The notes under the pieces are model-generated. The model ran no database searches. It saw only the letters and a program-made list of their open reading frames with translations, and was not told the DNA's origin. The position numbers and the translations under genes are program-made. This document shows positions 38,232-57,320 of a stretch of DNA of 57,376 nt, piece by piece. The stretch's first letter is position 1. Each line of letters opens with the position of its first letter. The DNA lies in IMG/VR virus record IMGVR_UViG_3300023197_000044, positions 1 through 57,376 of that record, one strand, 5' to 3'. Source of the DNA: a virus. Lineage: Duplodnaviria > Caudoviricetes.

Positions 38232-38235
38232 CGAT

Positions 38236-41762: not shown

Positions 41763-41801
41763 CCGAGGCGCTTACCGGCGCCGTAGACCACACAGACAAC
41801 C

Positions 41802-42347: not shown

Positions 42348-42405
42348 TTCGATAGGGGCCTTACCGGGCTCCTCTCTCCTTCACCTCTAAGACCACAAGA
42401 CAACC

Positions 42406-43158
42406 ATGAGCAACGCAAAGCTATCCGCCTTCGAAGAGCGGATCGAGAATATCAAGCAGCGTCGGGGCGTTCTGCTGTTCGCGGATGCGAGCACGTATAT
42501 CACCCAGCGCGAGGAGATTACTGCCGTTGACGACGGAACGAACACCGTGGACGTTGCGGCGGACCTGAGCGGGCTTTCTGTCGGGGTCGGGGTGCCGATC
42601 ATCGACGCACCTACGGACCCGAATACGGGCACGTACACGCTCACAGACGCCACCTACGACGGCACCACGTACACCACACTTACTTTCGACGAGGCGCTTG
42701 GAGGCGCCACCGTAGAGGGCTACGTTGTTGATCCGCGCTTCGCCCTCAACACCGCTGGGATCGTCAAGGACACCAACATTGGCGGCGAGCCCAATCAGTT
42801 TGGGCCGGACAACCAGGGCCGAACCTTTACCAAGGGGTTCGACATCACCGGGCAGTTTGCCATGATGCAAACTGGAGCCCCGGAGCTTCAAAACCTTCCC
42901 GCGCTTGCGGAGCCTGCCGGAAACGGGCTCTACGTCGCCTTCGTCGACAACCCCTTTCCCGTGGCAGACCAGGGTGCCGGGGTTCAGTTCACGGACATCG
43001 CCTTGCAGGACAAGGTAGAGCTTCTGAACGCCGCCGTGAACCCGACCTTTGCGCTAGATTTCAGTCGGGAAGAGTCCGACATCTCCAGCGAGATCACGGG
43101 CTACGTTTCCGTCTCGGAGCTTGAAAAGATGTACTCCGCGCCCATTCTCATGGGCTAA
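42406..43158 (+). CDS. Tail tube-like protein, paralogue 3 with ~70-aa insertion
   Basis: Shares NIKQRRGV and GEPNQFGPDNQGRTFTKGFDIT...PILMG with paralogue 2. Confidence 0.62.
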   Translation: MSNAKLSAFEERIENIKQRRGVLLFADASTYITQREEITAVDDGTNTVDVAADLSGLSVGVGVPIIDAPTDPNTGTYTLTDATYDGTTYTTLTFDEALGGATVEGYVVDPRFALNTAGIVKDTNIGGEPNQFGPDNQGRTFTKGFDITGQFAMMQTGAPELQNLPALAEPAGNGLYVAFVDNPFPVADQGAGVQFTDIALQDKVELLNAAVNPTFALDFSREESDISSEITGYVSVSELEKMYSAPILMG

Positions 43159-43185
43159 TTCACACACACATAGACCCAGCGAGAT

Positions 43186-43662
43186 ATGCCAGTCAAGGAA
43201 TTTTCTGGCAACGCAACGGTCGAGATTAGGGATGGGCAGGGCACGACGCTTTCGTCGCACGCCCTGCCCTTTTCTGATGGGAGGATCGCTGCGAAGCCAA
43301 AGCGACCAGGCGGACTCCCTTTCAGGGAGCTTGTCGACGGGCGGCGCAAGGAGCGCCGTGCGGACGGCTTCTATCGAGACGTGGAGTTGGATTGGGCAGA
43401 GCTATCCATTGATGCACACGCGGTCCTCGTGGGCCTGATTGATGCCCTGCACCTCCGCGCAGACGCCGACGAGGTGTACTTTTGCCCGGAGAACCCGGTG
43501 CCTACCGGGGCCTGGGACGACGACTTCATTTGGAGGGTCGTGCCCGCAATCAGCGGGGGCGACATCGACCTGATTTATGAGGACCGGGTGCGGGCTCGCG
43601 GCGCATCCCTTACCCTGAAAGCACATGACGCAATAACCACCCTACCGGGTTGGTTCGAGTAG
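43186..43662 (+). CDS. Hypothetical tail-module protein
   Basis: Position within the tail operon. Confidence 0.6.
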   Translation: MPVKEFSGNATVEIRDGQGTTLSSHALPFSDGRIAAKPKRPGGLPFRELVDGRRKERRADGFYRDVELDWAELSIDAHAVLVGLIDALHLRADADEVYFCPENPVPTGAWDDDFIWRVVPAISGGDIDLIYEDRVRARGASLTLKAHDAITTLPGWFE

Positions 43663-43685
43663 CTTTTCACCCAAGGAGGACAACC

Positions 43686-44054
43686 ATGAGTTCATACCGA
43701 CGACCGAAGTACGATGAGCAGGGCAAAACCTTCACGCTCGTCAAGACATCTCAGCACAATCGCGCCAAGCTCCGGGAGTACATGGACGAGCGCAACGACA
43801 GGATGTTGGAGCGGGAGGAGGCCCTGGAAGAGCAGGCAAACGGCAACCTGGACGTGAAGCTGCCGGACCCGATCAACCAGTACGAGATGTATTGGGACTG
43901 GTTCGTGATGCTCACCGATGGCCCGCACGACGAGATCGACCGAGAGCACTTCGATGAAAAGCTCGGCGAGAAGGTACTGTCGGATTTCGTGCCGCAAGCC
44001 ACAAGGACTCTGCTCGTGCAGCAAGGACTTTTGCCGCCTCTGACAGCGATGTAA
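43686..44054 (+). CDS. Tail assembly chaperone (G), probably extended by a -1 frameshift to 44254 (GT)
   Basis: Directly upstream of the tape measure; the -1 frame is open 43958-44254. Confidence 0.7.
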   Translation: MSSYRRPKYDEQGKTFTLVKTSQHNRAKLREYMDERNDRMLEREEALEEQANGNLDVKLPDPINQYEMYWDWFVMLTDGPHDEIDREHFDEKLGEKVLSDFVPQATRTLLVQQGLLPPLTAM

Positions 44055-44253
44055 GCGACGACCTCCAGGAGCCCTCCTGGAGCGGGCACTTGAAGGACAT
44101 TATTGGCGAGCCCATGCGGTTCGTCACCTTGAGGCTTGCTGACTACGACCCCGCTCGCGCCGCAGAGATCGAGCGGGACTGCACTATCACTGAGATCGCC
44201 GAAGCTGCCATGGTGAAGCAGCACGACAATGACACCGAGGTTGAGTTAGACTA

Positions 44254-47200
44254 ATGGATAAAGATGCGGGACGAGAAGTAAGCATTCACTTAACGCTTGG
44301 TGACAGCGACTTCGCCGACCAGTTCAACAAGGTTATCGGGGGCCTCACCGACCAGTTGAACCAGTCTGGCAAGCAGTTCGCCTCGCACATGGCGTCGGCG
44401 GAAAAGTCTATCCGCCAATCCACTGAGGCCCTGTCAGACACGATCTCCGATGAGCCGGGTCGACAGGCCCGCTCTAAGGGGCCGAGTGCTGGGCCTGGGC
44501 GTGGGGTCAAGAACGCCGAGGGCTCCATGGCTCGCGCCAACAAGCTGATGCAGCAGATGGAGAAGCGGTCCATCGACGCCAGCGAGGGAGCTATGCGAAT
44601 GGGCACCGAATACGAGGAGGTCCAGAAGGTCGTGAATGACCTCGTGACCGCGACGGAGAAGTTGAAGGACGGGTCTCGCGTCACGCACGACTTGAAGGCG
44701 CAGAACCGGCTCCGCAAGCAGGCCGGGAAGACGATCAACCAACTCACCAAGAAGATCAAGGAGCTTGCCCGCACGGAGCAGATCAGCCGTGAGCAAGCCG
44801 AGCGAATGCTGGGGGACCTACGGGACGGAGCGGCCCGCTACTCCGACGAGCGCATCAAGGCAGAGAAGGCGATCCAGTCTGTCCAGCGCAAAAGCATGAC
44901 GGAGTTCCGTCGCCAAATGAAAAGCCGGATCGCCCTCGTCGACGCCCTGCCCGAGAAGCATGATCGCATCCGGGACCAGTTAGAGGCCGAGCGCAAGACG
45001 CTCGTGCAGAAGGTCGAGGCGAACGAGGACAACATTCAGGCTATCGAGCGCCTTGCCGAGGTGAAGAAGACGATTGGCAAGCTCGACAAGCAAGAGCAGA
45101 AGCGTAGACAGGCCCAGGCGAAGCTACGCCAGGAACGCGAGACCCAAAAGGCTGCGGGCTCGGAGATGGCGTTCGGGGTCAACATGAAGCAGCAGAAGAA
45201 GCGGGTTAAGCAGGAGCTTGATGAGATGAGGCAGATCATTGCAAGCAGGAACCCCTTCGAAGCCCTCAAGGACTCCTTCGGGGCCGGGGACAGCTTGAAG
45301 AAGCAGAAGGGGGAGCTTGAGGAGATATTCCGGCTCATGGACAAGGAGGGCGAAGAGGCCGCGAAGGGTCTAAAGCAGGCCCAGCAGCAAAAGCTCGCCA
45401 TGCTTGACGAGGAGATTGACCGCCTCATTCAGCGAGACCAGATCGGCGAGGCGACCGAGCAGGAGCAGATCAGGCTCAACGAGCTTGAGGAGCAGCGCCT
45501 TCGTACCCTGAAAAACATCGAAAACACCGAGGAACAGATTAAGCGAGAGAAGGCGGGGCAGACCGCTCGGCAGCAGGGGCAGGGCGCGGGCCGGAAGGCG
45601 GTTCGTCGCAGGATGCGCCAGGACGGCTCCTTTGCTCAGTACAACGCCTCTCTACAGATGTCGCGTCTTGTCCAGGACGCTCCCTTCGGGCTAATGGGCA
45701 TGATGAACAACATTGACATGGCGGTCGACTCCATGCAGAAGCTCCGCAAGCAGACGGAGAGCACCGGGCAGGCGATGAAGAAGCTGTTCTTCGGCAGCAC
45801 TGCCTCGACGATGCTGTGGATCAACGCCCTCACGGCGGCGACACTCATCCTTTCGAGGCACGTCGACATCGCGGGCCGATTCGAGCAGCAGTGGGAGGAC
45901 ACGAAGGCGGCAATCTTCGGCGCGGGAGACGCGATGGAAAACCTCAAGGAGCAGATTGACGAGGCTACGAAGTCGAACCTCGTAATCATGGACAACATCT
46001 CTGCGGAGAAGGCGAAGGGTACCCTGGAGGACGTGACTCAGAAGCTCCACGACTTGCGCATGGAGCGCCGTGAGTACGTGAAGGGGCCGGAGGTGCTTGG
46101 CGGGCCGAACATTCCGGGGACGGAGACCTGGGGTGTAGGCGGGATCAAGCAATACCTCTTCCCGGACGAGGATATGCAGGAGTTCAATGAGCAGATCAGC
46201 GAGATGGAGCAGTATGAGGAGCAGTTAGGCGAGTTTGTCGCCGAGGGCTTCGGGATGAAAGAGGCGTACGAGAGGTCCGCCGAGTTCGGTGTTCTCACTG
46301 TGAAGGAGCACGCCAAAGTGCTCGACGAGATTCAGAGTCACCAGTCCGAGATGGCAGACATCATGCTGCGCGGGCGAGACGGGGAAGAGGCGATCCCCTA
46401 CAAGAAAGACAAGATCCGGGCGCGGTACGAGGAGGAGACCCGTGAGATCGAGGCCCTGATGCAGAAGAGGGCGAAGCAGTTGCGGGCTGCGCGGGACGCC
46501 AATGCCGAGGAGGAGGCGAAGAGACTACAGAAAAATCTACTGCTGCTCACGGACAAGCTCGGTGGCCTGCCCGCTGCACGTGAGCGTGAGCTTGCCAATG
46601 TCGGCGAGGACGGGTCCGGTGACGACGACCCGGCTGATGGGCTCCGTGAACTGATCGACATGCGCCACGAGGTAAAGCGGCGCGAGATCGAGATTTCGGA
46701 GGAGGGCCTGGAGGAGAAGAAGCAAATCATCGACCACGAGTTGAAGGTCCAGAAGGTCGCCCTTGACAGGCGCTTAGAGGACTTCGAGGGTACAGTTACA
46801 CAGGAGGCCGAGTTTGCCGAGTTGATCGCAGAGCGCAAGGCCCAGGCCGAGGAGCAGGCCGAGAGGGACAAGACGGACGCCGTAGAGGAGCACGCCCGGA
46901 AGCGTCGGCAAATCCGCATGGAGAATGCCCAGGTCGAACTCGACCTCCAGAAGAAGCGCCTATCCCTGCAAGACGACACCAACCGGACTGCCATTGAGCG
47001 CTCCCGGCTCCAGATGAAGAGCAAGGTGCTCTCGATGAACGAGAAGATCGCCAAGGCTGAGGACGAGGGCTACACCGAACGCGCCGAGAATTTGCGTAAG
47101 ATCCGGGATCTACAGTCTCGCGTCCACGACCAGCGCGTTGCCGACATCCGGGCTCAGACTCAGGAGCGGGCGCGTCAGATGGAAGAGGAGATCAATTCGA

Positions 47201-48171
47201 TGGTCGACGGAGCCGAGCGCTATAGTCAGCGCATTGCCACCTTCCAGACCGGGATGTACCGGGGCGCCATTCAGGGCGAGGTGGAGCGCATCCAGATGGG
47301 ACGGGAGGAGGCGATCCGCTCTGCCAGGGACGAGTTCGGAAGCCGCATGTCGGAGATTGACGAAATGGAGAAGCAGGCCGAGGACACCTACGCGAACGAG
47401 CAGAAGTTCTACCAGCAGCGGCTCGCCCTCTACGAGTGGTTTCGAGAAGAGAAGGAGGCGATCAGGGAGGACTACGACGACCAGGAGGAGCAGGCAATCA
47501 AGGAGAGCCAGAGGGCATTTGCCAGCATGGTAGGTGGGCAACTGTCCAGCCGTCTCAGCGATGTGTCCAGTGGGCTGAATGATCTCCAGCGCGTGTTCGT
47601 CGCCAATCGCAAGAAGCACCTGATGGAGCAGGGCGTCGCGGAGGAGGAGGCCGCAGCGAGGGCCGAGGAGGCCGGTCGCAGGCGCTTCGCTATCAAGAAG
47701 AAAATCGCCATTGCAGAGGCGACGGTGAACACCTTCAATGCCGCGATGAACGCCTACAATCAGGCGTCGCAGTTTGGCGGGCTCGCTGGCGGGATCGCAG
47801 CCTTCACGACCGCACTCACATTCGGCTTCGCCCAGGTGGCTAAAATTCGGGCTATGGGAATCGAGAGTGCGGGCAAAAGCGGTGGTGGGGTCGACGCTTC
47901 GGGGTTAGGTTCCGGTACGGATGCAACGGGGTCCCAGGTGACAGATCCGAATAGCTCGTTCGCTCCGAGCGGCGCCGGAATGTCCACCAGCGGGAAGAGG
48001 CAGTCTGCTCAACAGGATAGCGTCGAAGGGCAGATCAAGGGGCTCCGGGGCGACATGGAGCGCCACACGGCGGCGATAGAGAATATGAAGCCCGAGGCTA
48101 CGATGAGCGACGATACCGCCATCGAGGCTGGGGAGAAATACTCCGACCACAAAAGCGAAGACACATACTAA
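44254..48171 (+). CDS. Tail tape measure protein
   Basis: 1305 aa, helical; LVQDAPFGLMGMMNNI and KKIAIAEATVNTF..A motifs. Confidence 0.92.
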   Translation: MDKDAGREVSIHLTLGDSDFADQFNKVIGGLTDQLNQSGKQFASHMASAEKSIRQSTEALSDTISDEPGRQARSKGPSAGPGRGVKNAEGSMARANKLMQQMEKRSIDASEGAMRMGTEYEEVQKVVNDLVTATEKLKDGSRVTHDLKAQNRLRKQAGKTINQLTKKIKELARTEQISREQAERMLGDLRDGAARYSDERIKAEKAIQSVQRKSMTEFRRQMKSRIALVDALPEKHDRIRDQLEAERKTLVQKVEANEDNIQAIERLAEVKKTIGKLDKQEQKRRQAQAKLRQERETQKAAGSEMAFGVNMKQQKKRVKQELDEMRQIIASRNPFEALKDSFGAGDSLKKQKGELEEIFRLMDKEGEEAAKGLKQAQQQKLAMLDEEIDRLIQRDQIGEATEQEQIRLNELEEQRLRTLKNIENTEEQIKREKAGQTARQQGQGAGRKAVRRRMRQDGSFAQYNASLQMSRLVQDAPFGLMGMMNNIDMAVDSMQKLRKQTESTGQAMKKLFFGSTASTMLWINALTAATLILSRHVDIAGRFEQQWEDTKAAIFGAGDAMENLKEQIDEATKSNLVIMDNISAEKAKGTLEDVTQKLHDLRMERREYVKGPEVLGGPNIPGTETWGVGGIKQYLFPDEDMQEFNEQISEMEQYEEQLGEFVAEGFGMKEAYERSAEFGVLTVKEHAKVLDEIQSHQSEMADIMLRGRDGEEAIPYKKDKIRARYEEETREIEALMQKRAKQLRAARDANAEEEAKRLQKNLLLLTDKLGGLPAARERELANVGEDGSGDDDPADGLRELIDMRHEVKRREIEISEEGLEEKKQIIDHELKVQKVALDRRLEDFEGTVTQEAEFAELIAERKAQAEEQAERDKTDAVEEHARKRRQIRMENAQVELDLQKKRLSLQDDTNRTAIERSRLQMKSKVLSMNEKIAKAEDEGYTERAENLRKIRDLQSRVHDQRVADIRAQTQERARQMEEEINSMVDGAERYSQRIATFQTGMYRGAIQGEVERIQMGREEAIRSARDEFGSRMSEIDEMEKQAEDTYANEQKFYQQRLALYEWFREEKEAIREDYDDQEEQAIKESQRAFASMVGGQLSSRLSDVSSGLNDLQRVFVANRKKHLMEQGVAEEEAAARAEEAGRRRFAIKKKIAIAEATVNTFNAAMNAYNQASQFGGLAGGIAAFTTALTFGFAQVAKIRAMGIESAGKSGGGVDASGLGSGTDATGSQVTDPNSSFAPSGAGMSTSGKRQSAQQDSVEGQIKGLRGDMERHTAAIENMKPEATMSDDTAIEAGEKYSDHKSEDTY

Positions 48172-51100
48172 TGGACGTATTCGTTAAGACGTATCGGATT
48201 GAAGGCGGCAATATCCAGGGTGGTAAGTCCATCCAGGAGGTGCCCCTTCTAGAGGTCTCCGAGTTTGGCGAGGTGAAGAAGTACCTCGAAGAGGAGGCTA
48301 CGGAGTTCCGCATGGACTCAATCAGCCTCAAGACGGAGTTTCTGCCGAAGAGCTTCTTCGCCGACTACACGCCCCAGACGCCCTACCTCGTCGAGGTACA
48401 GGTCGGGTCGGGGTGGGATGCCTCGGACAGCCGGTGCATCTTCTACGGCCCCATCAAGAAGAAGTCCATCAAGTACAACGAGCGCACTGGCGTCACCTCG
48501 TTCGAGGTCTCGTCTTGGGAGCGCTCTGTTAAGCAGGCCGGTAGCGTCGTCGCCCGCGAGCGGATTCCCGTGAAGGTCGCCAAGCAGTATGTGAGTGACG
48601 GGAGCAACGTCGGCCCCTTGGCGCAGTGGCTCGGCTTTGGCCCCAAGGTTCGCGTAGCGGGCGAGGACCCGGACATCCCGGATATAATCGAGCGCGGGAT
48701 GATTCTCAAAACTAAAGCGAAGCTCGGGGACAACACGATCCCGTTCCATTTTCTCTGTAACACCACCCTGACGGAGCCTGAGACAGATGGTGTCACGGCG
48801 GGCGGTCAGACGATCTATCAGTTTCCGGTCCTAAGCGGAAGCAGTGGCCTTTTCCGGGGCGAAGGCTCGACGGAGGACAGGGCGTATTTCCCCTTGAAGC
48901 ATACCGGGCCGGTCAAAAGGCATAACAACTTGGGGCAGCATGTCGGTTGGAATGATAAGTGGTTGATGAGCGAGAAGAAGATCGCCCTGCCGCTTTCGTC
49001 TTTCGACTCCGATGTCACCGAGTTGGTGGGGGCAGAGGTTGAGATCACCGTCGACGAGAGCGTCTACGGTGCCGGGGTGAAGACGACGAAGACGAAGGTG
49101 ACTAACGCCTTCGTGGCGCCCCTAATTGACGGCCCGAAGGGGGCAATAGCCAACTTGGATACCAGCGGTCTTGAGCGGGGTGAGTACGGGATATTGGTTT
49201 TCGAGGACAAGGTGGGCGGTAGTGTGCAGCGAGGGACCTTCGAGGTTCCCACCAACTACAGCGGGGACCCGATTGGGCTTCCCGACATGATTGGGGCAAC
49301 CTGGACGTACAACAAGCTTCTCACCGTTGAGCCCGGTACGGACGGCACCCTGCTCTCTTCGGAAGCCTATGGTCGAGAGGGCGGGTCAATGCAGCCGTAC
49401 GGGGCAGTGCCCCTCGCCGAGGGGGTTGCGACTCGAACCCCGGCACTCGCCGACCTCCTGGATGGGAGCCCCGTCGTTAAAGGGACACCCGGTAGCCTGA
49501 GCAGGCGAATCCAGTTTGACGAGGACCTTATCAAGGCGCTCGGAGACATTCAGCGCTCCGCAGAAGCGCACATATCGTTTCAGGCCCGGTCGCGTGACCT
49601 GGAAGGGGGTGAGCGCAAGGACGTTACAGACGCAAACAATAATAAGATCGGGGAGGGCGCTCGGCGGGTGAAGATGGTCGTTGCCACAAGGGATTACCAG
49701 GCCCAACAGCCGACCCTTGACCTCCCGGACGCAATCGAGTGGAAAGGGGAGGCCCTGGGCGCGAAGCCCGACGTTGTGGTCGTAGAGGGGCCTAAGATCA
49801 TAAATGCAAGCTCCGATCGGGACAAAGCCGTGGGGTGGTTCCCGAAGGACGCCATCGACGACCCTGATAGGGCTGATGAGGGCGGCAATGAAGTCGTGAA
49901 GATTGAGGCCCCTCTTATCGAGGCTTCGGTCGAGGGCAATGGGCTCACTGTGCCGGAAAATATCTCCTCGGTGGCGGGGAGGGCAGAGCGCTACTACAAC
50001 TTCTACTCGCAGTATTTCCGCGAGAAGGAGGTCGTCGTTGATGGCGTGTTCGATCAGGTTGCCGGTGGCGCATACGAGGACCCCGTGATTGGCTCTACCG
50101 TGTCGGAGGACGAGTCGGTATTCGAGACCGGGGTAGTCACGAGCCAGTCGGTCGACTACGGGAAAGAGGAGACGACCCTAAACGTCTTAGTGGCGACGAG
50201 CTACGTTGCCCCCACCAATGCGGACCCGGTGGCGCTCCTACAGGCCCCAAGTGCGCTCCAATCCAACGACGGAGCAGTCCCCATCACTCTGGACGCCACC
50301 TCCTCCTACGACCCCAACGGAGACCCCATCTCCTTTAGGTGGCTCAAGAACGGGAGTGTGATTACCGGCGAGACCGGGCGCTACCTTGAGACCGATGCGC
50401 AGGACGGGGATCAGTACGAGGTCGAGGTGAAGGACCCGGAAGGGGCAATCGACGTGGACACAGTGACGATCAATGTCTCTACCGCAACCACGGGGTCAAG
50501 CGGGGGCGAACCGTACCTTTCCGTCCGCCTCGACGAGGGCTCTACAACAGACACCACAGAGGTCTATGATGTCGAGTCGCAGAAGAGGGGCGGCGACCTG
50601 AAAGTCGAATACAAGGTTCTCAGGGGCGACGAACTACTCAGCGAGGGGGAGATCGGGACAGGAGGGCCGGAAGCGTCCGGCTCGATTTCCGTAGACCGGA
50701 ATAATAGGTTCCTGAAGACTATCACGGTCAAGTCTTACGACCAGACGGACGGCACTGTCGCCAGGGCCGTGAGGACTGTTGCGCCTGCCTCTGAGGCGTC
50801 TACGGGGACAACACTGGGCAACTTCTTTACCGCCAACGGGGACGCAATAGAAGACGAGTGGGCTGGATTCTACGTTGATCGGGGGCGCAGGGAGGACGGC
50901 ACCGGGTCCGGCCTAATTTCGAGAGCGGTGGCATGGAACCCAACTACAGATCGCTTTGGAGTTGCCGACCTCGACGCCGCTAATGGTGGAGGGGCTGTTG
51001 AGTCGACTTTCGAGCAGTTCGCCCTGGCAAGTGCAGACGAGACAATAGATGGATCATGGAAATTTGGTGCTCAGACAGAATTTCGCGCTGAGGCGGATTT

Positions 51101-53252
51101 TCTCACGAACGGGGCGAAGTTCAACAATCACATCATTTACTCGCCCGACACCACGTACGACGTACTGAACATGCGGCGGTACGGGAAGGACTTCACCCTA
51201 CTCAACATGATGGCTCCCCCGCAGACTTCATGGGGCGGGGCAAGGGAGTGTACGCTTGCCCTCGTTAGGGGTGACGGTAACGAATACTTCATGGACCTCT
51301 ACAACATGGACTATGGGGACTCCGATCAGGGTAATTACTTGGATTATGGGAATGCCAGGATGGGGTTGAGGCTCCAGAAAAGGGGAACGGGGGTCTACAC
51401 TCCGTTCTTCTTTGAATACAGTGACGGCACGCGGGGCGAAGAGATCGAGGCGATGGTGATGTACCCCCAGCAGTCAACGAACAGCACCAACGATACCAAG
51501 ATCGAGGTAGTCAACGAATTTGAGGTTGGCGGTACCGCTGTAATTGGTGAGCATATTGGCAGCCCCTCCTACACGAGCGGGATTCTTGGGGCAGGGTGGA
51601 GGGTGGATAATACCCCAGCGGAGGGGTCGTTCTTCGAGGTCGACAACATGCGTGTGCGTAATGAATTTCGCACGCACATTTTCAAGAAGGACATCGTGAA
51701 GGCGAGCAACGGCTACTTGCTCATTACCGACTCTGCGAAGGTTGCCGAAGGGAAGGCGATGTTCCAGGACGGGCAAACCCTTGATGTGGAGTCTGGAGAG
51801 GGCAATGCCAGCTTCTCGGTCAATGACCTTCTCTGGGTAAAGACGCTCGACGACGCCGGATCAACTGTCTACGAAATCAAGCTCACTGTAACGGCTGTAG
51901 ATGCCTCCCCAGGCGATAAGGACATCTTGACGGTCAACGTGCAGTCAGCGGGTGACGTGTACGAGGGCGATACCCTCGTTCGCGTGTCGGGCGGCTACTT
52001 GCTCAATGACGCAAGCAGCCAGTATGCCCCCTTCATTGACGTGTATGACGGAGTGAGTACGTGGTCTGACTTCCGGCACCCTAACAAGCTAAAGGCTCGG
52101 TACGGCAACCTGGAGGGGGTCAGTCACCCGACCATGAACCCAAGTGGGTACGGGCTCTATAGCGAGAATACCTACCTCGAAGGGGAGTTCGTAGCCGGTA
52201 GTGGGACCACGCACATCAAGTCCAACGGGGACCTCTACCTTGCAGATGGAGACATCACCTACAATGGCATAACCCTTGAGGTTAGCGCCAAAATCACGGC
52301 CCTGAGTGGTGACATCGCAGGATGGAGCATCACCCACAACAGCCTGGATAAGAGCTTCACCAACACAACGCTCAACCTTGGCACCCTTCCGAGTGCCAGT
52401 GACTACGGGTTCCGCGCAGCCTCATCCAGCGGTCGAGAGGTGTTCATGCGTGTAGATGAGAGTGCAGATCAGGCGGAAATTGGCGCGTACAAGGACTCCG
52501 CGAACCACGTGGCTATAGGCGAGGACTTTTGGGGGATAATGAACGGGGTTGGTGTGCGGATTCGGTCTGCGGGTACGGATGTGCTACAGGCAGACGAGGA
52601 TGGGTTGAAGGTCGACGCGCTCTTCACTGACGAAATTTTCTCCAATGAGGCCACTATCAGTGAGAGATTGACAATTGGCTCAACTGGAGAGATTACCAAT
52701 GGGGCGGGAGACTACACAATAGACAGCGATGGGATCGCTTTGAACACCGGCTCCGGCATTCTTGCCAGGGCAATAACCTGGAACGAGAGTGGCACTGAGA
52801 TTGCCCGCATTGCCGCCGACAATGGGAGCTACGTTCAGAGCGTCTATGGGGATGCGAACTCCAGCTACTCAGGGCAAACACTCCAGGCCCGCTCCGCGAA
52901 GGGGTCGACGGGTTCGTATAGTTACTGCGAGATTGCGATTAGCTACCGCCCGACAGGAAGCGACAGTATCCAATTAAATACGTCGGACTCAGATGGAGTC
53001 TACACCAATGACTCGCCAAGGGTGGAGATCGGTACTGTTCTTGGCGGGAATACCGATGTGATGCTCCAGTTCTTGCCGAACGAGAAGGTAATGAAGTTCC
53101 CGAACTATCGCACTTCTCACTACCCCTGGAGCGCACTCAATCAGGGAGAGGCCGTGCTGTACGTCATGAAAAAGGGGGACGGAGACATCGACCTAATGTG
53201 GCGAGAGAAGACAGACGATGGCAGTACGTACCAGACGAATCTTGGCTCGTAA
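48171..53252 (+). CDS. Large tail tip / central fibre protein with a PKD-like domain
   Basis: 1693 aa, beta-rich; NADPVA...ITLDATSSYDPNGDPISFRW; GYGLYSENTYLEG. Confidence 0.82.
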   Translation: MDVFVKTYRIEGGNIQGGKSIQEVPLLEVSEFGEVKKYLEEEATEFRMDSISLKTEFLPKSFFADYTPQTPYLVEVQVGSGWDASDSRCIFYGPIKKKSIKYNERTGVTSFEVSSWERSVKQAGSVVARERIPVKVAKQYVSDGSNVGPLAQWLGFGPKVRVAGEDPDIPDIIERGMILKTKAKLGDNTIPFHFLCNTTLTEPETDGVTAGGQTIYQFPVLSGSSGLFRGEGSTEDRAYFPLKHTGPVKRHNNLGQHVGWNDKWLMSEKKIALPLSSFDSDVTELVGAEVEITVDESVYGAGVKTTKTKVTNAFVAPLIDGPKGAIANLDTSGLERGEYGILVFEDKVGGSVQRGTFEVPTNYSGDPIGLPDMIGATWTYNKLLTVEPGTDGTLLSSEAYGREGGSMQPYGAVPLAEGVATRTPALADLLDGSPVVKGTPGSLSRRIQFDEDLIKALGDIQRSAEAHISFQARSRDLEGGERKDVTDANNNKIGEGARRVKMVVATRDYQAQQPTLDLPDAIEWKGEALGAKPDVVVVEGPKIINASSDRDKAVGWFPKDAIDDPDRADEGGNEVVKIEAPLIEASVEGNGLTVPENISSVAGRAERYYNFYSQYFREKEVVVDGVFDQVAGGAYEDPVIGSTVSEDESVFETGVVTSQSVDYGKEETTLNVLVATSYVAPTNADPVALLQAPSALQSNDGAVPITLDATSSYDPNGDPISFRWLKNGSVITGETGRYLETDAQDGDQYEVEVKDPEGAIDVDTVTINVSTATTGSSGGEPYLSVRLDEGSTTDTTEVYDVESQKRGGDLKVEYKVLRGDELLSEGEIGTGGPEASGSISVDRNNRFLKTITVKSYDQTDGTVARAVRTVAPASEASTGTTLGNFFTANGDAIEDEWAGFYVDRGRREDGTGSGLISRAVAWNPTTDRFGVADLDAANGGGAVESTFEQFALASADETIDGSWKFGAQTEFRAEADFLTNGAKFNNHIIYSPDTTYDVLNMRRYGKDFTLLNMMAPPQTSWGGARECTLALVRGDGNEYFMDLYNMDYGDSDQGNYLDYGNARMGLRLQKRGTGVYTPFFFEYSDGTRGEEIEAMVMYPQQSTNSTNDTKIEVVNEFEVGGTAVIGEHIGSPSYTSGILGAGWRVDNTPAEGSFFEVDNMRVRNEFRTHIFKKDIVKASNGYLLITDSAKVAEGKAMFQDGQTLDVESGEGNASFSVNDLLWVKTLDDAGSTVYEIKLTVTAVDASPGDKDILTVNVQSAGDVYEGDTLVRVSGGYLLNDASSQYAPFIDVYDGVSTWSDFRHPNKLKARYGNLEGVSHPTMNPSGYGLYSENTYLEGEFVAGSGTTHIKSNGDLYLADGDITYNGITLEVSAKITALSGDIAGWSITHNSLDKSFTNTTLNLGTLPSASDYGFRAASSSGREVFMRVDESADQAEIGAYKDSANHVAIGEDFWGIMNGVGVRIRSAGTDVLQADEDGLKVDALFTDEIFSNEATISERLTIGSTGEITNGAGDYTIDSDGIALNTGSGILARAITWNESGTEIARIAADNGSYVQSVYGDANSSYSGQTLQARSAKGSTGSYSYCEIAISYRPTGSDSIQLNTSDSDGVYTNDSPRVEIGTVLGGNTDVMLQFLPNEKVMKFPNYRTSHYPWSALNQGEAVLYVMKKGDGDIDLMWREKTDDGSTYQTNLGS

Positions 53253-53355
53253 CGTGAGGCACACCCGGTTGACGGCTGGGCCTGAGCCCCTATATTGGAG
53301 TACACTCTTACTCACCGGCCCTTACCGGGGCTTATTGCAAACAAAGGAGGCAACC

Positions 53356-53832
53356 ATGACAGATCAGCCAGAAGCACACACGCAGTCACCACGAGCGCCC
53401 CAGGACGCGCCGGAAGGCGAGGCAGGGGAGCAGGGCAACCCGAGCAACCGGGAGCTTATCCAGCGCTTCAACACACTCCAGGCCGTGAAGCCGTGCTTCA
53501 CTGTGCCGAAGATCAAGTACGCAATGACGAAGAACATGACTCGCATTGAACAGGCCCTCAAGCCGTTCCATCGGGCTGACGAGGAGCTTCGGGGTGAGTT
53601 CGGTATCTCGGGTCAGGAGCCCCTTCGTACCAAGGATGGAGAGCCCCGCGAGGGCATCGACCAGGAGTTCTACGACCGCCGCCAGGGCCTCCTCGGAGAA
53701 GAGGGCGACCCCTACGACGAGTACAATGTCTCAGATCGGTTCCTCGACAAAGAGGAGGGGCGTATGCGTGACGGAAGCAGGGGGCTTCCTGAGGGCGCCA
53801 TTTCGCCTATCATGTGGCTCTTCTCCGAATAA
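53356..53832 (+). CDS. Hypothetical protein (possible tail-fibre-associated)
   Basis: Hairpin and GGAGGCAACCATG define the start. Confidence 0.68.
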   Translation: MTDQPEAHTQSPRAPQDAPEGEAGEQGNPSNRELIQRFNTLQAVKPCFTVPKIKYAMTKNMTRIEQALKPFHRADEELRGEFGISGQEPLRTKDGEPREGIDQEFYDRRQGLLGEEGDPYDEYNVSDRFLDKEEGRMRDGSRGLPEGAISPIMWLFSE

Positions 53833-53943
53833 TGAGCACAGGTGTAAGCGGAACCCCTGGCGAGGACGTGCCCGATTGGGTACCTTGGGAGTGTAGTTGA
53901 TTGAGGGGCTTACCGGCCCCCATAATCCCAAGACAACCATGAC

Positions 53944-54564
53944 ATGCACCCCCTCTTTTTTGCCCTCCTGGGCACGTCCTGCCTTTGGGTTTTCGGCTAT
54001 TGGATATCACGTAGCCCGAGCCTGGAGGTTACTCGTTTCTTGTCCCCCATCGTCTCTCTTGGGCAGCACGCCCAGGTGAAAGGCACACTTTCCTTTCTTG
54101 CAATCGAGACGGGTTTTATTGACTCCCTGCTCACTTTCATGCAGGGAGTTTTTGAGGTAAGGGCCGAGGCCGCGTTTGCCCTGGGGCTCGTACTCCTGTT
54201 CGACTTTGCCTCCGGGGTCTACGCCTCGTGGTGGCGCAAGTCCGACGAGCTTGGGCGCCCCGCAGCCTTCAATCAGTTCTTGTCGTCGAGGCGACTGCGG
54301 GACTCGATCATCAAGATCGGGGAGTACCTGTCTGTCCTAATCCTCTTCACGGTCGCCGCTAACGTGTGGGAGGTGGAGCTTGGGTGGGCGAAGCGCTGGA
54401 CCTACCTGATGATCTTTCTAACGGAGTTCTGGAGCACCCGAGAGAACTTCCAGGACGTTCCGATCCGGGGTGTCATGGACCAGATGCGGCAACTCATCAA
54501 CAAGGGCACGGCAAAGGACATCTCAGTCGACTCACAAGGCCCCGGTGCCAATGACGATGAATAA
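53944..54564 (+). CDS. Holin (Phage_holin_4_1-like)
   Basis: Several TM segments; LFDFASGV...SRRLRDSIIK...TEFWSTREN. Confidence 0.82.
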   Translation: MHPLFFALLGTSCLWVFGYWISRSPSLEVTRFLSPIVSLGQHAQVKGTLSFLAIETGFIDSLLTFMQGVFEVRAEAAFALGLVLLFDFASGVYASWWRKSDELGRPAAFNQFLSSRRLRDSIIKIGEYLSVLILFTVAANVWEVELGWAKRWTYLMIFLTEFWSTRENFQDVPIRGVMDQMRQLINKGTAKDISVDSQGPGANDDE

Positions 54565-55162
54565 CAACATGCCCACGCGATCCGACAGCGGGGTCTCCTT
54601 CTTTCTAATCCTCGTTGTCCTCGCCCTGCTTCTATCCCTGCTGGCCTGTTCATCTACGGGCACCGAGCACGTTCGCATCGACCAGACGGACCGGAGGGAT
54701 GCGGTGCAGACCGAGGCCCCGGACACGGTAACCGTTGAGCGAGTCCGCACAGACACGCTCTGGATGCCGGGAATGACGCTCACGGTACCCGAGACTGTGG
54801 AGGTAGCGCGGGAGGAGCCGACCGCCAGGGATACGACCGATGCCTTCCCCCTGAAAGAGGTCGCCGTAGACAGCGCACAGGTACGCCTATCGGGCCTCAC
54901 TGAGCGGCACATCCTCGCTGCGCCGTGCCTCGGGCAGCGCCTCATTGGACGCTCGGTGCAAGGGGAGATGGAGTTCTACGTCGAAGGCGATTGCGTGGCG
55001 AGGGACACGACCATAGAATGTACCTACGAAAAGGAGTCGTGGATAGAGCGCACGACTGATAAGCTCGCCCGCTGGTTCAGCCTCGTAGCCCTGGTTGGCT
55101 TCGGCATGTACCTCTTGTGGGGCACGCTGGAGACCGCCATACGGGCGGCGCTTCCCTGGTAG
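54557..55162 (+). CDS. Lipoprotein with a C-terminal TM helix; u-spanin-like
   Basis: Lipobox LLA-C, then a C-terminal WFSLVALVGFGMYLLW; directly after the holin. Confidence 0.68.
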   Translation: MNNNMPTRSDSGVSFFLILVVLALLLSLLACSSTGTEHVRIDQTDRRDAVQTEAPDTVTVERVRTDTLWMPGMTLTVPETVEVAREEPTARDTTDAFPLKEVAVDSAQVRLSGLTERHILAAPCLGQRLIGRSVQGEMEFYVEGDCVARDTTIECTYEKESWIERTTDKLARWFSLVALVGFGMYLLWGTLETAIRAALPW

Positions 55163-55226
55163 CGAGCACGCGACGAACTCACTCTACGGGTGCTTACCGG
55201 CGCCCTACAACAACCAATAGACAACC

Positions 55227-56594
55227 ATGGATATCAGCTATCAGGAATTGCGCAACCGAATGGCGAATCAGTACCGCAGAAAGATTCTGGAGGACGGTTG
55301 GGGCCGTCACCGGATCGCCGACGACGCCTCGGCGAAGTACGGTTTCGGGGTGTCCCGGAAGCAGGCCCGCAAGGTAATCAACCGGGTCCGGGAAGAGGCC
55401 GACGCCCCGCCCGAGGTTGGCGACGTGGTAGAGGTTCACACCCCGGAGTCCGATGTGGACTACGAGAACGGCGAGGCGAGCACCGTATCGGCCCGCCCCA
55501 TGACGATGGACGAGGCTATCGAGCACCTGGGCATCAACGAAGAGGACTGGAGGATCATCCGTCCGAAGGTGGGCACGTACGAGGGGCAGTGCAAGGTGGA
55601 TGTGGTGACCGGCTACGACGCCGAGGACGAACCGATCACCGAGCAGGAGCACCGCGTCAAGACGATGTATAAGTTCGAGTTCGCCCTGGAGCGGCGCCAC
55701 CCTGCCGAGACTGAGGCATTCGCCGACAAGCTCCTCGAACAGGTCGCCGACGAGGCCCCGATCTACCGAGCCAACATCCAGCAGCCGAAGACGGGGAACC
55801 TGATGCGGCTGCACATCCCGGATCTCCACGTGGGCAAGGAGGGGTACCAAGCTGACTGGTCTCCCGACTCGGTCCGTGAGCGCGTCTTTCGCGTCCTCGA
55901 CGAGTTCGTTGCCCTGGCAGAGCAACACGGAGTGGACCGGATCTCCTGGCCCCTGGGGCACGACATCCTCCAGGTAGACCGCACCTTCGAGCAGGGCAGG
56001 GCGGGAGGAGGGGGTACCCTCAGCACCACGTCCAGCGGCACGCCGGTCACCTCGGCAATGCCGTGGATCGAACAGTTCCTCCTTGGCTGCGACCTCGCAG
56101 AGCAGATCGCCCGTCGCCTATTGGAGGTAGCGCCCCTGGACATCAACGTCGTTCCCGGCAACCACTCCGAGCAGTCCGAGATTGCCATTGGGCGCGTGAT
56201 GATCGCGGAGTTCAGGAATAGCCCGGACGTGCGGGTCAACCTCGACTCCAGCCGAGACAAATACTACGAGTGGGGCGTCAATGGCTTCATGGACACGCAT
56301 GGAGACACCGTGAGCTTCAAGAAGCTCGCTATGGCATTCGCCACCTCCAACGGAGAGCTTTGGGGCAAGAGCAAGTGGCGAGAGGTCAACGTGGGGCACA
56401 AGCACGTCACCAAGAAGCGCCCGGTGGGTATCCGAAGCAATGAGACAGGCGGGTGCTGCGTTTACATCTCGCCCTCACTGAGCCCACAGGACGAGTGGCA
56501 CGCGAAGTACCACTACCACGGAATGCCGGGTGCCCAGGCGTTTATGTACCACAAGGAGCGCGGCCCCTTTGCCAACTACGAGCGGTTCTTTTAG
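55227..56594 (+). CDS. Calcineurin-like metallophosphoesterase with an N-terminal extension
   Basis: DLHVGK, GHDIL, PGNH, HGD, GHKH motifs. Confidence 0.85.
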   Translation: MDISYQELRNRMANQYRRKILEDGWGRHRIADDASAKYGFGVSRKQARKVINRVREEADAPPEVGDVVEVHTPESDVDYENGEASTVSARPMTMDEAIEHLGINEEDWRIIRPKVGTYEGQCKVDVVTGYDAEDEPITEQEHRVKTMYKFEFALERRHPAETEAFADKLLEQVADEAPIYRANIQQPKTGNLMRLHIPDLHVGKEGYQADWSPDSVRERVFRVLDEFVALAEQHGVDRISWPLGHDILQVDRTFEQGRAGGGGTLSTTSSGTPVTSAMPWIEQFLLGCDLAEQIARRLLEVAPLDINVVPGNHSEQSEIAIGRVMIAEFRNSPDVRVNLDSSRDKYYEWGVNGFMDTHGDTVSFKKLAMAFATSNGELWGKSKWREVNVGHKHVTKKRPVGIRSNETGGCCVYISPSLSPQDEWHAKYHYHGMPGAQAFMYHKERGPFANYERFF

Positions 56595-56664
56595 TGCGGA
56601 TTGTGGGCTTAACCACCTATTCACCGGAATCTTGGGGTTGTGGCACAGGTCAGGCTTGAGAAGA

Positions 56665-56718
56665 ACTTGCAACTACGACCCGGTGACTTGCAACTACACC
56701 CCGACCATGTTATATAAA
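56665..56718 (+). promoter_or_regulatory. Predicted promoter of sRNA-A with an overlapping direct repeat
   Basis: TTGCAA (56688-56693), 17 nt, TATATA (56711-56716) with extended TG; ACTTGCAACTAC at 56665 and 56686. Confidence 0.65.
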
Positions 56719-56720
56719 TA

Positions 56721-56814
56721 TGCCTGCTTAGGCAAAACAAAGGCGGTTTTAGCATGGTTGTCTTCCCGCCTGATAGTGCCCGCATCGCCCCAACGGTGTG
56801 GGCATTTTCTATTT
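56721..56814 (+). ncRNA. Predicted sRNA-A, antisense to the phage-wide AAGACAACCATG start motif
   Basis: Hairpins TGCCT-GCTT-AGGCA and AGGCGG-[TTTTAGCATGGTTGTCTTC]-CCGCCT; terminator TGCCCGCATCG-CCCCAA-CGGTGTGGGCA-TTTTCTATTT. Confidence 0.7.
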
Positions 56815-56833
56815 GTGTGCAGCCTAAGCAAGC

Positions 56834-56958
56834 AAAGAAAAGGGCCGCAGCCGATACCTTCCCTGGCTACGACCCGAGCGGTATAGGGCCGTTGGCGCCG
56901 GTAGGCACCCTCTCATTTCTCTTCGGCCCTCTGGTTGTCTTCGCCGTCTACTTGTCTG
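56834..56958 (-). ncRNA. Predicted sRNA-B carrying the sense motif and the YUACCG hairpin (decoy-like)
   Basis: Minus strand CGGC-[GAAGACAACCAGAGG]-GCCG and GGTGC-CTACCG-GCGCC; terminator GGGTCGTAGCC/GGCTGCGGCCC-TTTTCTTT; TATATT at 56968-56963. Confidence 0.58.
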
Positions 56959-57183: not shown

Positions 57184-57220
57184 AAAAAAAGCCCGCCCCC
57201 GGCAATTCGGGATCGGGCTT
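57184..57220 (-). terminator. Intrinsic terminator just inside the right att
   Basis: Minus strand AAGCCCGATCCCG-AATTGC-CGGGGGCGGGC followed by TTTTTTT. Confidence 0.75.
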
Positions 57221-57269: not shown

Positions 57270-57320
57270 CCGACACACGGCTTTTCAGGCCGTTGCTCTA
57301 CCACCTGAGCTACCTGGCCC
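57270..57320 (-). repeat. att core, right copy: truncated tRNA-Phe 5' fragment lacking the T arm and 3' acceptor strand
   Basis: Identical to 77-127; the sequence diverges at the start of the T arm. Confidence 0.97.

What the first reader, a model, noticed from the sequence alone, without database searches (positions are those of the whole stretch)
56688..56814. Predicted small RNA that is the exact antisense of a start-codon motif shared by ~40 lytic genes: candidate global RNA repressor of the prophage
Seen: a self-contained plus-strand unit near attR with TTGCAA-17-TATATA, a 5' hairpin, a 6-bp stem holding a 19-nt loop UUUUAGCAUGGUUGUCUUC, and a terminator whose G-U pairs only work on this strand. 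The loop is the reverse complement of GAAGACAACCAUGC, the sequence at the start of most replication, early, head, tail and lysis genes. The motif is absent from the starts of the integrase, R-M, nuclease and RloC-like genes, which are the genes a lysogen should express. No CI-like repressor with an S24 peptidase domain is visible. Established: RNA-mediated immunity exists (P4 CI RNA, P1/P7 c4) but acts on one or a few targets. Inference: a single sRNA occludes the AUG of dozens of mRNAs and so maintains lysogeny or superinfection immunity by translational silencing. An activating or timing role is not excluded.
Basis: partly seen in the sequence, partly recalled or inferred. Interest (0 to 1): 0.96.

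Follow-up and report, generated by a model that had tools for sequence, protein, structure and literature searches.

The report
Orphan antisense copy of start motif
A prophage from salt-lake bacteria marks about half its genes with one short sequence just before the start codon, and near its right end carries a single reversed copy displayed in an RNA hairpin loop before a terminator, which may be a small regulatory RNA but is not shown to be expressed.

Summary
AGACAACC(0-11 nt)ATG is a real, phage-specific start-associated sequence: 27 hits against 1.19 expected, and 28 of 35 RGACAACC sites lie within 15 nt upstream of a predicted start on the coding strand. It is not host-wide.

The unit at 56719-56815 folds as described: a 5' hairpin, a 6-bp stem with a 19-nt loop complementary to the motif, and a plus-strand terminator. 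The minus-strand 44-codon ORF looks non-coding.

- The promoter is no better than chance.
- The strand asymmetry of folding is ordinary for this genome.
- No RNA data were available.
- No relatives could be fetched for covariation.

Start-associated sequences of unknown function are already known in Cluster K and EF actinophages. In Anaya, the single reversed copy also sits in a hairpin loop. But 5 of 14 sampled Cluster K phages lack that loop sequence, and the two of those five that were checked keep the motif at their gene starts.

Best reading, at about 0.4: a trans-acting antisense RNA element. A relic regulatory cassette and a protein-read motif remain live rivals.

The parts
56665..56697 (+). 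Two exact direct repeats ACTTGCAACTAC (56665-56676, 56686-56697), 21 bp apart. The second contains the -35-like TTGCAA. Possible regulator sites.
   Evidence: only these two exact copies in the window; the 2-mismatch hits elsewhere are at chance level.
56688..56716 (+). Promoter-like TTGCAA - 17 nt - TATATA (8 of 12 to the sigma-70 consensus).
   Evidence: One search gives the coordinates and shows 24 equally good sites in the window, 6 of them in 8.8 kb of intergenic DNA. The sigma-70 scan did not call it. Weak evidence.
56721..56734 (+). 5' hairpin (5-bp stem, 4-nt loop).
   Evidence: MFE structure. One search also flags it as a weak minus-strand terminator-like site.
56741..56771 (+). 6-bp stem (AGGCGG / CCGCCU) enclosing the 19-nt loop 56747-56765, which is complementary to GAAGACAACCAUGC.
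   Evidence: the only one of 51 motif sites with a flanking inverted repeat of 5 bp or more; loop unpaired probability 0.66 in the short RNA.
56753..56765 (-). Orphan copy of the start-associated sequence GAAGACAACCATG, in reverse orientation to the neighbouring plus-strand genes.
   Evidence: 0 mismatches. (not upstream of any predicted gene). (similarity to gene-start copies is limited to 12-17 nt).
56775..56817 (+). Intrinsic terminator: 12-13-bp stem with 3 G-U pairs, then UUCUAUUUGUG.
   Evidence: -20.7 kcal/mol on the plus strand against -13.0 on the minus strand, which has no U tail.
56621..56755 (-). 44-codon ORF starting at the orphan motif's ATG; judged non-coding.
   Evidence: -0.31 per codon, GC3 0.52. 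(no homologue among proteins of 24-77 aa). (only a sub-threshold Pfam hit).
56703..56715 (+). Upstream stretch GACCAUGUUAUAU that pairs with part of the loop in read-through transcripts and masks it.
   Evidence: loop unpaired probability falls to 0.15 when the RNA starts at the upstream stop codon.
56930..56942 (-). Second orphan motif copy GAAGACAACCAGA (no ATG), flanked by a 4-bp inverted repeat.
   Evidence: No plus-strand structure signal here (z about -0.5).
56894..56910 (-). Cassette-type hairpin (GGUGCC-UACC-GGCGCC) like those that precede motif copies at real genes.
   Evidence: 94% identical over 17 nt to the hairpin at 55188-55204; compared by eye with the listing.
57193..57205 (-). 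Minus-strand terminator-like hairpin plus T run. In the circular phage it lies just beyond attP from int. In the lysogen it faces the host tRNA-Phe promoter.
57270..57320 (.). attR core: a 51-nt exact repeat of 77-127 (5' half of tRNA-Phe). The prophage spans about 127-57270.
   Evidence: (family D7).
2884..55229 (.). The target set: 33 predicted genes with RACAACC within 22 nt upstream of the start (23 on the minus strand, 10 on the plus strand), always on the coding strand. Most are preceded by a hairpin with a (C)UUACCG(G) loop.

Best explanation
The segment 56719-56817 is a non-coding, plus-strand, terminator-capped RNA element. It displays the complement of this prophage's start-associated sequence in a 19-nt G/U-rich loop.

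When made as a ~95-nt RNA, from its own promoter or by processing of the upstream operon's 3' end, the loop is free. It can then pair with the C/A-rich AGACAACC(AUG) block at the translation start regions of about 33-40 phage mRNAs. That would occlude ribosome access.

Shown: the anatomy, the complementarity, the non-coding status of the opposite-strand ORF, and the phage specificity of the motif.

Inferred: transcription of this strand as a discrete RNA, pairing in vivo, the sign of the effect (repression is the more likely), and the timing (lysogeny or a lytic switch).
For: - The motif is real and start-linked: 27 hits against 1.19 expected; 28 of 35 RGACAACC sites lie within 15 nt upstream of predicted starts on the coding strand.
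- It is not host-wide. GACAACCATG occurs 2, 4, 2, 2 and 6 times in the five genomes with the closest tRNA-Phe (3.6-4.1 Mb), against 20 times in this 57-kb window. AGACAACCATG occurs at most 7 times per genome in 285 genomes of that order, similar to the reversed-pattern control.
- Structure: plus-strand fold -40.7 kcal/mol, z = -4.17. The GC-corrected plus-strand MFE ranks 6th of 4774 windows, the 4th locus.
- Terminator on the plus strand only.
- Only this one of 51 motif sites is framed by a perfect 6-bp inverted repeat.
- Similarity to gene-start copies stops at the 12-17-nt motif, so it is not a recent duplication of a gene start.
- The minus ORF is non-coding by codon usage and has no homologue.
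- Duplex of -12 kcal/mol or stronger with 32 of 33 motif genes against 4 of 30 others.
- The loop is open in the short RNA (0.66) and masked in the read-through RNA (0.15).
- Diverged relatives in hypersaline-lake metagenome contigs align again exactly from the first loop base (56747), after 216 unaligned bases.
- Analogy: in mycobacteriophage Anaya the single reversed start-associated sequence also lies in the loop of a 6-bp hairpin in a conserved non-coding gap.
Against: - The promoter match is 8 of 12. The scan did not call it, and equally good matches occur 24 times in the window.
- The plus/minus folding asymmetry of -11.1 kcal/mol is matched or exceeded by 8.4% of windows, because coding strands here are A/C-rich.
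- A plus-strand terminator is expected at this spot anyway, as the end of the upstream operon.
- The minus strand of 56890-56945 carries a cassette-type hairpin and a second motif copy, as decayed gene-start cassettes would.
- The relative's conservation (loop, spacer, hairpin) fits a minus-strand cassette equally well.
- Late genes carry the motif too, so an RNA made from the late operon would hit its own operon.
- In Cluster K, 5 of 14 sampled phages have no anti-motif in the homologous loop. All 5 genomes checked, 2 of them from that group of five, carry 15-20 forward motif copies with the same GGGATAGGAGCCC core. So there is no covariation, and the loop is dispensable in that system.
- No Rfam family matches.
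Confidence: 0.4

Rival explanations
1. Relic cassette. The phage's intergenic regions are built from a repeated cassette: hairpin with a UUACCG loop, then an A/C-rich leader, then AGACAACC, then ATG. The two reversed copies near attR are leftovers of one or two lost or shuffled minus-strand genes that happen to lie beside the operon terminator. They have no function of their own.
For: - The cassette architecture recurs at more than 20 starts (repeat families D2, D3, D9, D14, D16, D18).
- Inverted cassettes with real genes exist inside the plus-strand arm: 27244-27435 and the portal gene 35240-36637.
- A cassette-type hairpin and a second, ATG-less motif copy lie on the minus strand at 56894-56942.
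- Two further AGACAACC orphans exist, at 21568 and 6853.
- The promoter is at chance level.
Against: - The hairpin next to this copy is not the cassette type. Its loop is UUGGGG, it has two A-C mismatches on the minus strand, and it has a U tract on the plus strand.
- The exact 13-mer and a perfect 6-bp frame are unique among 51 sites.
- No flanking homology to any gene start survives, yet the motif is intact.
- A diverged relative keeps the loop while the flank is unalignable.
Confidence: 0.25
2. The motif is read by a protein or by the ribosome, not by an RNA. It could be a translational operator, as for T4 RegA. It could be a translational enhancer. Or it could be an asymmetric DNA site for a repressor that blocks elongation, as with the stoperators of mycobacteriophage L5. 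On this reading the reversed copies near attR are extra binding sites or decoys, for example to insulate the prophage end from minus-strand read-through from the host tRNA-Phe promoter.
For: - Strict coding-strand orientation in both arms, and absence from int and the defence-island genes.
- The authors of the Cluster K paper left open a protein or RNA reader (PMC3203893, passages read).
- The host tRNA promoter faces into the prophage at attR, with a minus-strand terminator at 57205-57193.
- A borderline Sm-like WYL_2 protein is encoded at 15183-15554 (26.3 bits against a cut-off of 26.7).
- The Cluster K loop is dispensable.
Against: - No repressor, RegA-like or other nucleic-acid-binding regulator was recognised in the ORFs scanned.
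- 20 of 33 copies abut ATG exactly, which argues against a purely DNA-level site.
- The motif is not complementary to the 16S 3' tail: -4.1 kcal/mol against -19.8 for a perfect Shine-Dalgarno sequence.
- This reading does not explain the hairpin framing or the adjacent terminator.
Confidence: 0.2
3. The segment is the leader and start of a translated 44-residue minus-strand protein (56755 to 56621).
For: A perfect motif directly abuts an ATG that opens a 44-codon frame. A genuine 44-residue motif-bearing gene exists elsewhere in the phage, at 22266-22400.
Against: - Codon score is -0.31 per codon, against +0.17 for the genuine 44-residue gene and a minimum of +0.078 among the 33 motif genes. 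GC3 is 0.52 against 0.69 or more.
- No homologue (that search covers only proteins of 24-77 aa that share 5-residue words).
- The relative's alignment stops at 56747, three codons into the frame.
- The frame runs through the repeat and AT-rich promoter-like region.
Confidence: 0.05

Closest known systems
[quoted passage not shown]
   Same: - A short asymmetric motif, far better conserved than a ribosome-binding site, lies within a few bases of ATG at 10-19 genes.
- It is phage-specific and absent from the host.
- It is paired with an upstream conserved inverted-repeat element.
[quoted passage not shown]
- The function was still called unknown in 2024 and 2025 (PMC11373665, PMC12699233; passages).
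   Different: - The sequence is unrelated and lacks a Shine-Dalgarno core (the Cluster K motif contains AGGAG).
- Here it marks both the early and the structural arms (33 genes), whereas in Cluster K it is restricted to the non-structural half.
- 20 of 33 copies abut ATG with zero spacing.
- The host is a halophilic member of Bacteroidota, by inference.
- The upstream element here is a true hairpin with a conserved hexaloop.
GcvB-type multi-target sRNAs (recalled, not read here): a G/U-rich seed pairs with C/A-rich elements in or upstream of the ribosome-binding sites of many mRNAs
   Same: A G/U-rich single-stranded seed (GGUUGUCUU) opposes C/A-rich sites at translation start regions. One RNA has dozens of potential targets.
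   Different: GcvB is a chromosomal, Hfq-dependent regulon controller with degenerate targets. Here the targets share a near-identical 11-mer and all belong to one phage. Expression is unproven.
Phage antisense immunity RNAs: P1/P7 c4 and P4 CI
   Same: A small structured phage RNA whose loops are complementary to sites at ribosome-binding regions of lytic-pathway transcripts, and which contributes to immunity.
   Different: Those RNAs act on one or two sites in a single operon and are processed from a longer transcript. No sequence or Rfam similarity was found here.
Stoperators of mycobacteriophage L5 and Cluster A (mentioned in PMC3203893, passage; details recalled)
   Same: Many copies of an asymmetric 13-bp site, oriented with transcription, spread through the early and late operons of a temperate phage. 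They silence the prophage globally.
   Different: Stoperators are DNA sites for a protein repressor and have no fixed register with ATG. No repressor was identified here.
T4 RegA translational repressor (recalled)
   Same: One factor occludes the AUG region of dozens of phage mRNAs.
   Different: RegA is a protein that acts on degenerate A/U-rich sites. No homologue was detected here.

Membership tests
Start-associated sequence (SAS) systems of phages (as defined in PMC3203893) | A short asymmetric motif repeated many times and far above chance | tested here: met
   27 hits against 1.19 expected; 0 of 100 shuffles reach 27.
Start-associated sequence (SAS) systems of phages (as defined in PMC3203893) | Located within a few nucleotides upstream of start codons, in one orientation relative to the gene, with ATG preferred | tested here: met
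   28 of 35 RGACAACC sites lie within 15 nt upstream of a predicted start on the same strand. 20 abut ATG directly.
Start-associated sequence (SAS) systems of phages (as defined in PMC3203893) | Absent or rare in host genomes | tested here: met
   2-6 copies per 3.6-4.1-Mb genome in the 5 genomes with the closest tRNA-Phe. At most 7 in 285 genomes of the order. The true host genome was not available.
Start-associated sequence (SAS) systems of phages (as defined in PMC3203893) | Contains the Shine-Dalgarno core and occupies the RBS position | tested here: not met
   The motif has no GGAG core; only 2 variants read GGAGGACAACC. The duplex with the 16S 3' tail is -4.1 kcal/mol, against -19.8 for a perfect SD. 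So this is an analogue, not a member of the Cluster K motif family.
Start-associated sequence (SAS) systems of phages (as defined in PMC3203893) | An associated upstream conserved element (ESAS) | tested here: met
   A hairpin with a (C)TTACCG(G) loop lies 10-30 nt upstream of many copies (repeat families).
Trans-acting base-pairing sRNA | Own promoter or a defined processing site | tested here: inconclusive
   8 of 12 match, not called by the scan; 24 equal matches in the window. Tandem repeats unique to the locus overlap the -35-like hexamer.
Trans-acting base-pairing sRNA | Intrinsic terminator on the same strand | tested here: met
Trans-acting base-pairing sRNA | Accessible seed complementary to target translation start regions | tested here: met
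   Loop unpaired probability 0.66 in the short RNA. Duplex of -12 kcal/mol or stronger with 32 of 33 motif genes. The complementarity follows from the motif, so this is not independent evidence.
Trans-acting base-pairing sRNA | Detected transcript of defined size and strand | not testable with these tools
   No RNA run was listed for this sequence.
Trans-acting base-pairing sRNA | Conservation with covariation in relatives | tested here: inconclusive
   No relative could be fetched. Metagenome contigs show only that the loop realigns in a diverged relative.
P1 c4 / P4 CI immunity RNAs; any Rfam family | Sequence and structure match to a curated model | tested here: not met
   Nothing at gathering score. 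Best sub-threshold hit is 19.7 bits against a cut-off of 50, to an unrelated family.

The most novel reading that the evidence does not exclude
This prophage has no protein repressor. Instead, one ~95-nt RNA is made from a regulated promoter just inside attR. It silences the whole lytic programme after transcription, by pairing with a start-codon tag that the phage has placed on about 35-40 of its own mRNAs. The same logic, an anti-tag hairpin, would be the missing reader of the start-associated sequences of Cluster K1 mycobacteriophages.
Probability: 0.12. Interest if true: 0.9.

Novelty: new variant of a known kind. Interest (0 to 1): 0.6.

Why it matters
Start-associated sequences have been known in actinophages since 2011 and still have no known reader or function (passages of PMC3203893, PMC11373665 and PMC12699233).

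This prophage shows the same design in an unrelated phylum, with a motif that cannot be explained as a Shine-Dalgarno sequence. It also offers a concrete candidate reader: a hairpin-displayed antisense copy.

The parallel placement of Anaya's orphan copy in a hairpin loop makes the idea testable in a genetically tractable phage for which RNA-seq already exists.

If the RNA works as proposed, it would be a phage-wide translational switch run by a single RNA. If it does not, the orphan copies still bear on how such regulatory cassettes spread.

Tried and rejected
**Relatives of this phage**
- Exact loop 19-mer in viral contigs: one chance hit in AT-rich coding DNA.
- Exonuclease and terminase proteins in viral contigs: none.
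- Exonuclease in metagenome contigs: none.
- Cassette pattern (hairpin loop, gap, motif) in viral, genome and metagenome contigs: 18, 25 and 35 single hits, none with motif enrichment.
- blastn of 53200-57300 against the phage records: no match.

**Host flank**
- The exact tRNA-Phe with two extra 3' bases found nothing in genome contigs.

**RNA evidence**
- No RNA holder was listed.
- Only contigs of DNA runs could be laid. Parts without cover there say nothing.

**Other ideas tested**
- Motif as host-wide start context: rejected. Two hits 7.4 kb apart in one genome proved to be ordinary GGAG-spacer starts.
- Motif shared with lytic Salinibacter phages: rejected, 14/5/14 hits against 13/3/13 for the control.
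- Motif as a promoter for a phage RNA polymerase: no polymerase was found among the early or large proteins scanned. A CACTNA element upstream was seen by eye only.
- Pairing of the motif with 16S rRNA: none at the 3' tail. The best site, near position 1048-1064, gives -16.3 kcal/mol, and 3% of shuffled motifs do as well. Treated as coincidence.
- Strand asymmetry of folding as evidence for the plus strand: rejected as uninformative.
- The central orphan at 21568: no structure signal on either strand.
- The second orphan at 56930-56942: no plus-strand structure signal.
- Loop/motif covariation across Cluster K: not found.

**Tools and sources not available**
- Supplementary files of the papers were not opened. 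Tables of SAS positions in the supplements of PMC3203893 and PMC12699233 may already list the reversed sites in more phages.

**Literature**
- No paper in searches or 95 was seen to propose an antisense RNA as the SAS reader. I read only listings and the passages cited, and the ZoeJ RNA-seq paper is not in the library.
Full report
**What the window is**

The window is a whole 'virus record' of 57,376 bases. It holds a prophage bounded by an exact 51-nt direct repeat, 77-127 and 57270-57320. That repeat is the 5' half of a tRNA-Phe gene.

- A tyrosine integrase lies at 376-1626 on the minus strand.
- The terminase is about 32% identical to terminases of lytic Salinibacter phages.
- DNA runs that hold parts of the sequence are labelled hypersaline-lake metagenomes.

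The host is therefore probably a halophilic relative of Salinibacter. This is an inference; the host genome itself was not available.

**The motif**

GAAGACAACCATG with up to two mismatches occurs 27 times, against 1.19 +/- 1.11 in shuffles. Exact counts are 20 for GACAACCATG and 17 for AGACAACCATG.

I built a heuristic gene map from codon usage trained on the longest ORFs. It is not a curated annotation.
- 33 of 63 predicted genes have RACAACC ending within 22 nt of the start. 23 are on the minus-strand early arm and 10 on the plus-strand arm.
- In 20 of them the motif abuts ATG directly. The conserved block runs from -8 to +3, with weaker A at -9 and -10 and C or G at +4.
- A few more genes have near-variants, such as AGACACC before the terminase gene.
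- 28 of 35 RGACAACC sites lie within 15 nt upstream of a predicted start on the same strand.

Most copies are preceded, 10-30 nt upstream, by a G+C-rich hairpin with a conserved (C)UUACCG(G) loop and an A/C-rich leader.

Genes without the motif include:
- the integrase and its neighbour 1690-2181;
- the low-G+C island 27736-34120, which holds a methyltransferase, an SNase-type nuclease and an AAA_13 ATPase;
- many tightly packed late genes.

**Is it simply how the host starts genes?**

No, as far as I could test.
- Five 3.6-4.1-Mb genomes with the closest tRNA-Phe hold 2, 4, 2, 2 and 6 copies of GACAACCATG.
- Across all 285 genomes of that order, 151 have any AGACAACCATG. The most in one genome is 7, the hits are scattered, and the reversed-pattern control gives similar numbers.
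- Their 16S rRNA ends in a normal CCUCC anti-Shine-Dalgarno sequence, to which the motif is not complementary.
- Three lytic Salinibacter phages show no enrichment.

**The candidate RNA**

On the plus strand, 56719-56815 folds to -40.7 kcal/mol (z = -4.17) into three elements:
1. a 5' hairpin;
2. a 6-bp stem with the 19-nt loop UUUUAGCAUGGUUGUCUUC;
3. a 12-13-bp hairpin followed by UUCUAUUUGUG.

The last hairpin is a terminator on this strand only: -20.7 kcal/mol with three G-U pairs. The minus strand gives -13.0 and has no U tract.

The reversed motif copy is the only one of 51 RACAACC sites framed by a perfect inverted repeat of 5 bp or more. Its similarity to the gene-start copies ends at the 12-17-nt motif, so it is not a recent copy of a particular gene start.

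The 44-codon minus-strand frame that begins at its ATG looks non-coding.
- It scores -0.31 per codon. The 33 motif genes score +0.21 +/- 0.05, with a minimum of +0.078.
- Its GC3 is 0.52, against 0.69-0.88.
- A genuine 44-residue motif gene at 22266-22400 scores +0.17.
- It has no homologue within the limits of the word-based search.

The loop can form duplexes of -12 kcal/mol or stronger with 32 of 33 motif genes, against 4 of 30 others. This follows from the complementarity and is not independent evidence.

**What weakens the sRNA reading**

- The promoter match is 8 of 12. The scan does not call it. Equally good matches occur 24 times in the window and 6 times in 8.8 kb of intergenic DNA.
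- The better folding of the plus strand is not special. 8.4% of 97-nt windows have at least as large an asymmetry, because coding strands are A/C-rich and their complements fold through G-U pairs. The GC-corrected plus-strand energy, however, ranks 6th of 4774 windows.
- A terminator is expected here anyway, after the exonuclease gene 55227-56594.
- In a transcript that reads through from that gene, the loop is predicted to be masked. Its unpaired probability is 0.15, through pairing with GACCAUGUUAUA at 56703-56715. In a 95-nt RNA that starts after the putative -10 it is open, at 0.66.
- The minus strand of 56890-56945 carries a cassette-type hairpin and a second, ATG-less motif copy. That is what decayed cassettes would look like.
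- No Rfam family matches.

**Comparative evidence**

None of the collections yielded a relative (see Tried and rejected). Contigs of four hypersaline-lake runs show diverged relatives.
- In three runs a contig aligns up to 56530 and again from exactly 56747, the first loop base.
- It then continues with a one-base insertion. By my own comparison of the printed letters, it is about 23 of 29 identical through the spacer and the 5' arm of the terminator.
- Two of the three substitutions in that arm would keep pairing on the plus strand. The 3' arm was not printed, so this is only a hint.
- The pattern fits either a conserved plus-strand RNA 3' half, or a conserved minus-strand cassette followed by different sequence.

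**Known parallels**

Pope et al. 2011 described 13-bp start-associated sequences and upstream extended elements in Cluster K mycobacteriophages (PMC3203893; passages).
- They are absent from the host and sit 3-7 bp from ATG.
- Cluster EF Microbacterium phages have an analogous pair of motifs (PMC7302621).
- Passages of a 2024 and a 2025 paper still call the role unknown.

I looked at Anaya's reversed site. It lies in a 385-nt gap between gp96 and gp97, in the loop of a 6-bp G+C hairpin.
- The region is conserved in 150 Cluster K records.
- Among 14 phages sampled across the identity range, 7 keep an 11-12 of 13 anti-motif there, 2 keep 9 of 13, and 5 have none, at 7 of 13 or fewer.
- The forward motif showed the same GGGATAGGAGCCC core in all 5 genomes checked, 15-20 forward hits each at up to 2 mismatches. 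Two of those genomes lack the anti-motif loop.
- The design therefore recurs, which is striking. There is no covariation, and the loop is dispensable there.

**Verdict**

The most likely single reading is a plus-strand antisense RNA element that can pair with the shared start motif. I put this at about 0.4.

The rivals are:
- a relic or shuffled regulatory cassette beside the operon terminator, about 0.25;
- a protein-read or ribosome-read motif whose reversed copies are extra sites, about 0.2;
- a real small ORF, about 0.05.

In kind, this is a new variant of known things: start-associated sequences, and multi-target base-pairing RNAs. The interest lies in offering a testable reader for a 15-year-old puzzle.

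Noticed in passing
window, upstream of many motif copies, e.g. 17590-17605, 18255-18270, 19492-19512, 24440-24455, 41767-41785, 53905-53920, 55188-55205: A G+C-rich hairpin with a conserved (C)TTACCG(G) loop lies 10-30 nt upstream of the start motif at more than 20 genes. It is an analogue of the 'extended SAS' of Cluster K phages. Its reader is unknown.
   Followed up: partly
window 11600-11666(-), 17040-17100, 17600-17640, 18826-18844, 22208-22260: tRNA-like T-arm and acceptor fragments (GGTTCGAnTCC-type) sit in several early intergenic regions. One reaches the Rfam tRNA gathering score exactly (29 bits). ARAGORN calls only tRNA-Phe and tRNA-Arg(CCT).
   Followed up: no
window 21409-22884: About 1.4 kb between the two divergent arms has no ORF with positive codon score, except a 44-residue hydrophobic protein at 22266-22400. 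It holds a perfect 16-bp palindrome GTACGTATATACGTAC (22706-21) just before a perfect TATAAT (22725-30), and another orphan motif copy at 21566-21578(-).
   Followed up: partly
window 27736-36637: A low-G+C island (0.38-0.52) holds a methyltransferase, an SNase nuclease and an AAA_13 ATPase. It separates the terminase from the portal gene. The portal gene lies on the opposite strand (35240-36637) with its own start motif.
   Followed up: partly
window 14737-14880 (+) and 43201-43320 (both strands): These are the most strongly folding 97-nt windows of the genome after correction for G+C. The first is antisense to early genes.
   Followed up: no
window 15183-15554 (-): A 123-residue early protein with a borderline match to WYL_2, an Sm-like SH3 barrel (26.3 bits, cut-off 26.7). 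It is a possible RNA-binding factor, and its gene lacks the start motif.
   Followed up: no
window 56752-56766 compared with L087 (16S rRNA of G259) near position 1048-1064: By my own count, the loop is identical at 13 of 15 positions to the universally conserved 16S stretch GCAUGGCUGUCGUC. The motif's best duplex with 16S lies there, at -16.3 kcal/mol; 3% of shuffled motifs do as well. Probably coincidence.
   Followed up: partly
L089 29866-29888 (Mycobacterium phage Anaya, record about 59865-59887) and homologues L090-L095: The single reversed start-associated sequence of K1 mycobacteriophages lies in the loop of a conserved 6-bp hairpin, inside a conserved and apparently structured non-coding region near the right genome end. 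SgtBeansprout and Nikao carry a stem change that gives a G-U pair on the plus strand.
   Followed up: partly
window 77-127 / 57270-57320; 181-213 / 57131-57163: The att core covers the 5' half of tRNA-Phe rather than the usual 3' end. A 33-nt repeat (88% identical, with a 22-nt exact core) lies in both prophage arms and is likely an integrase arm-type site.
   Followed up: no
window 18877-19464 (-): An ArdA antirestriction protein is encoded in the early arm, beside a prophage-borne methyltransferase island.
   Followed up: no
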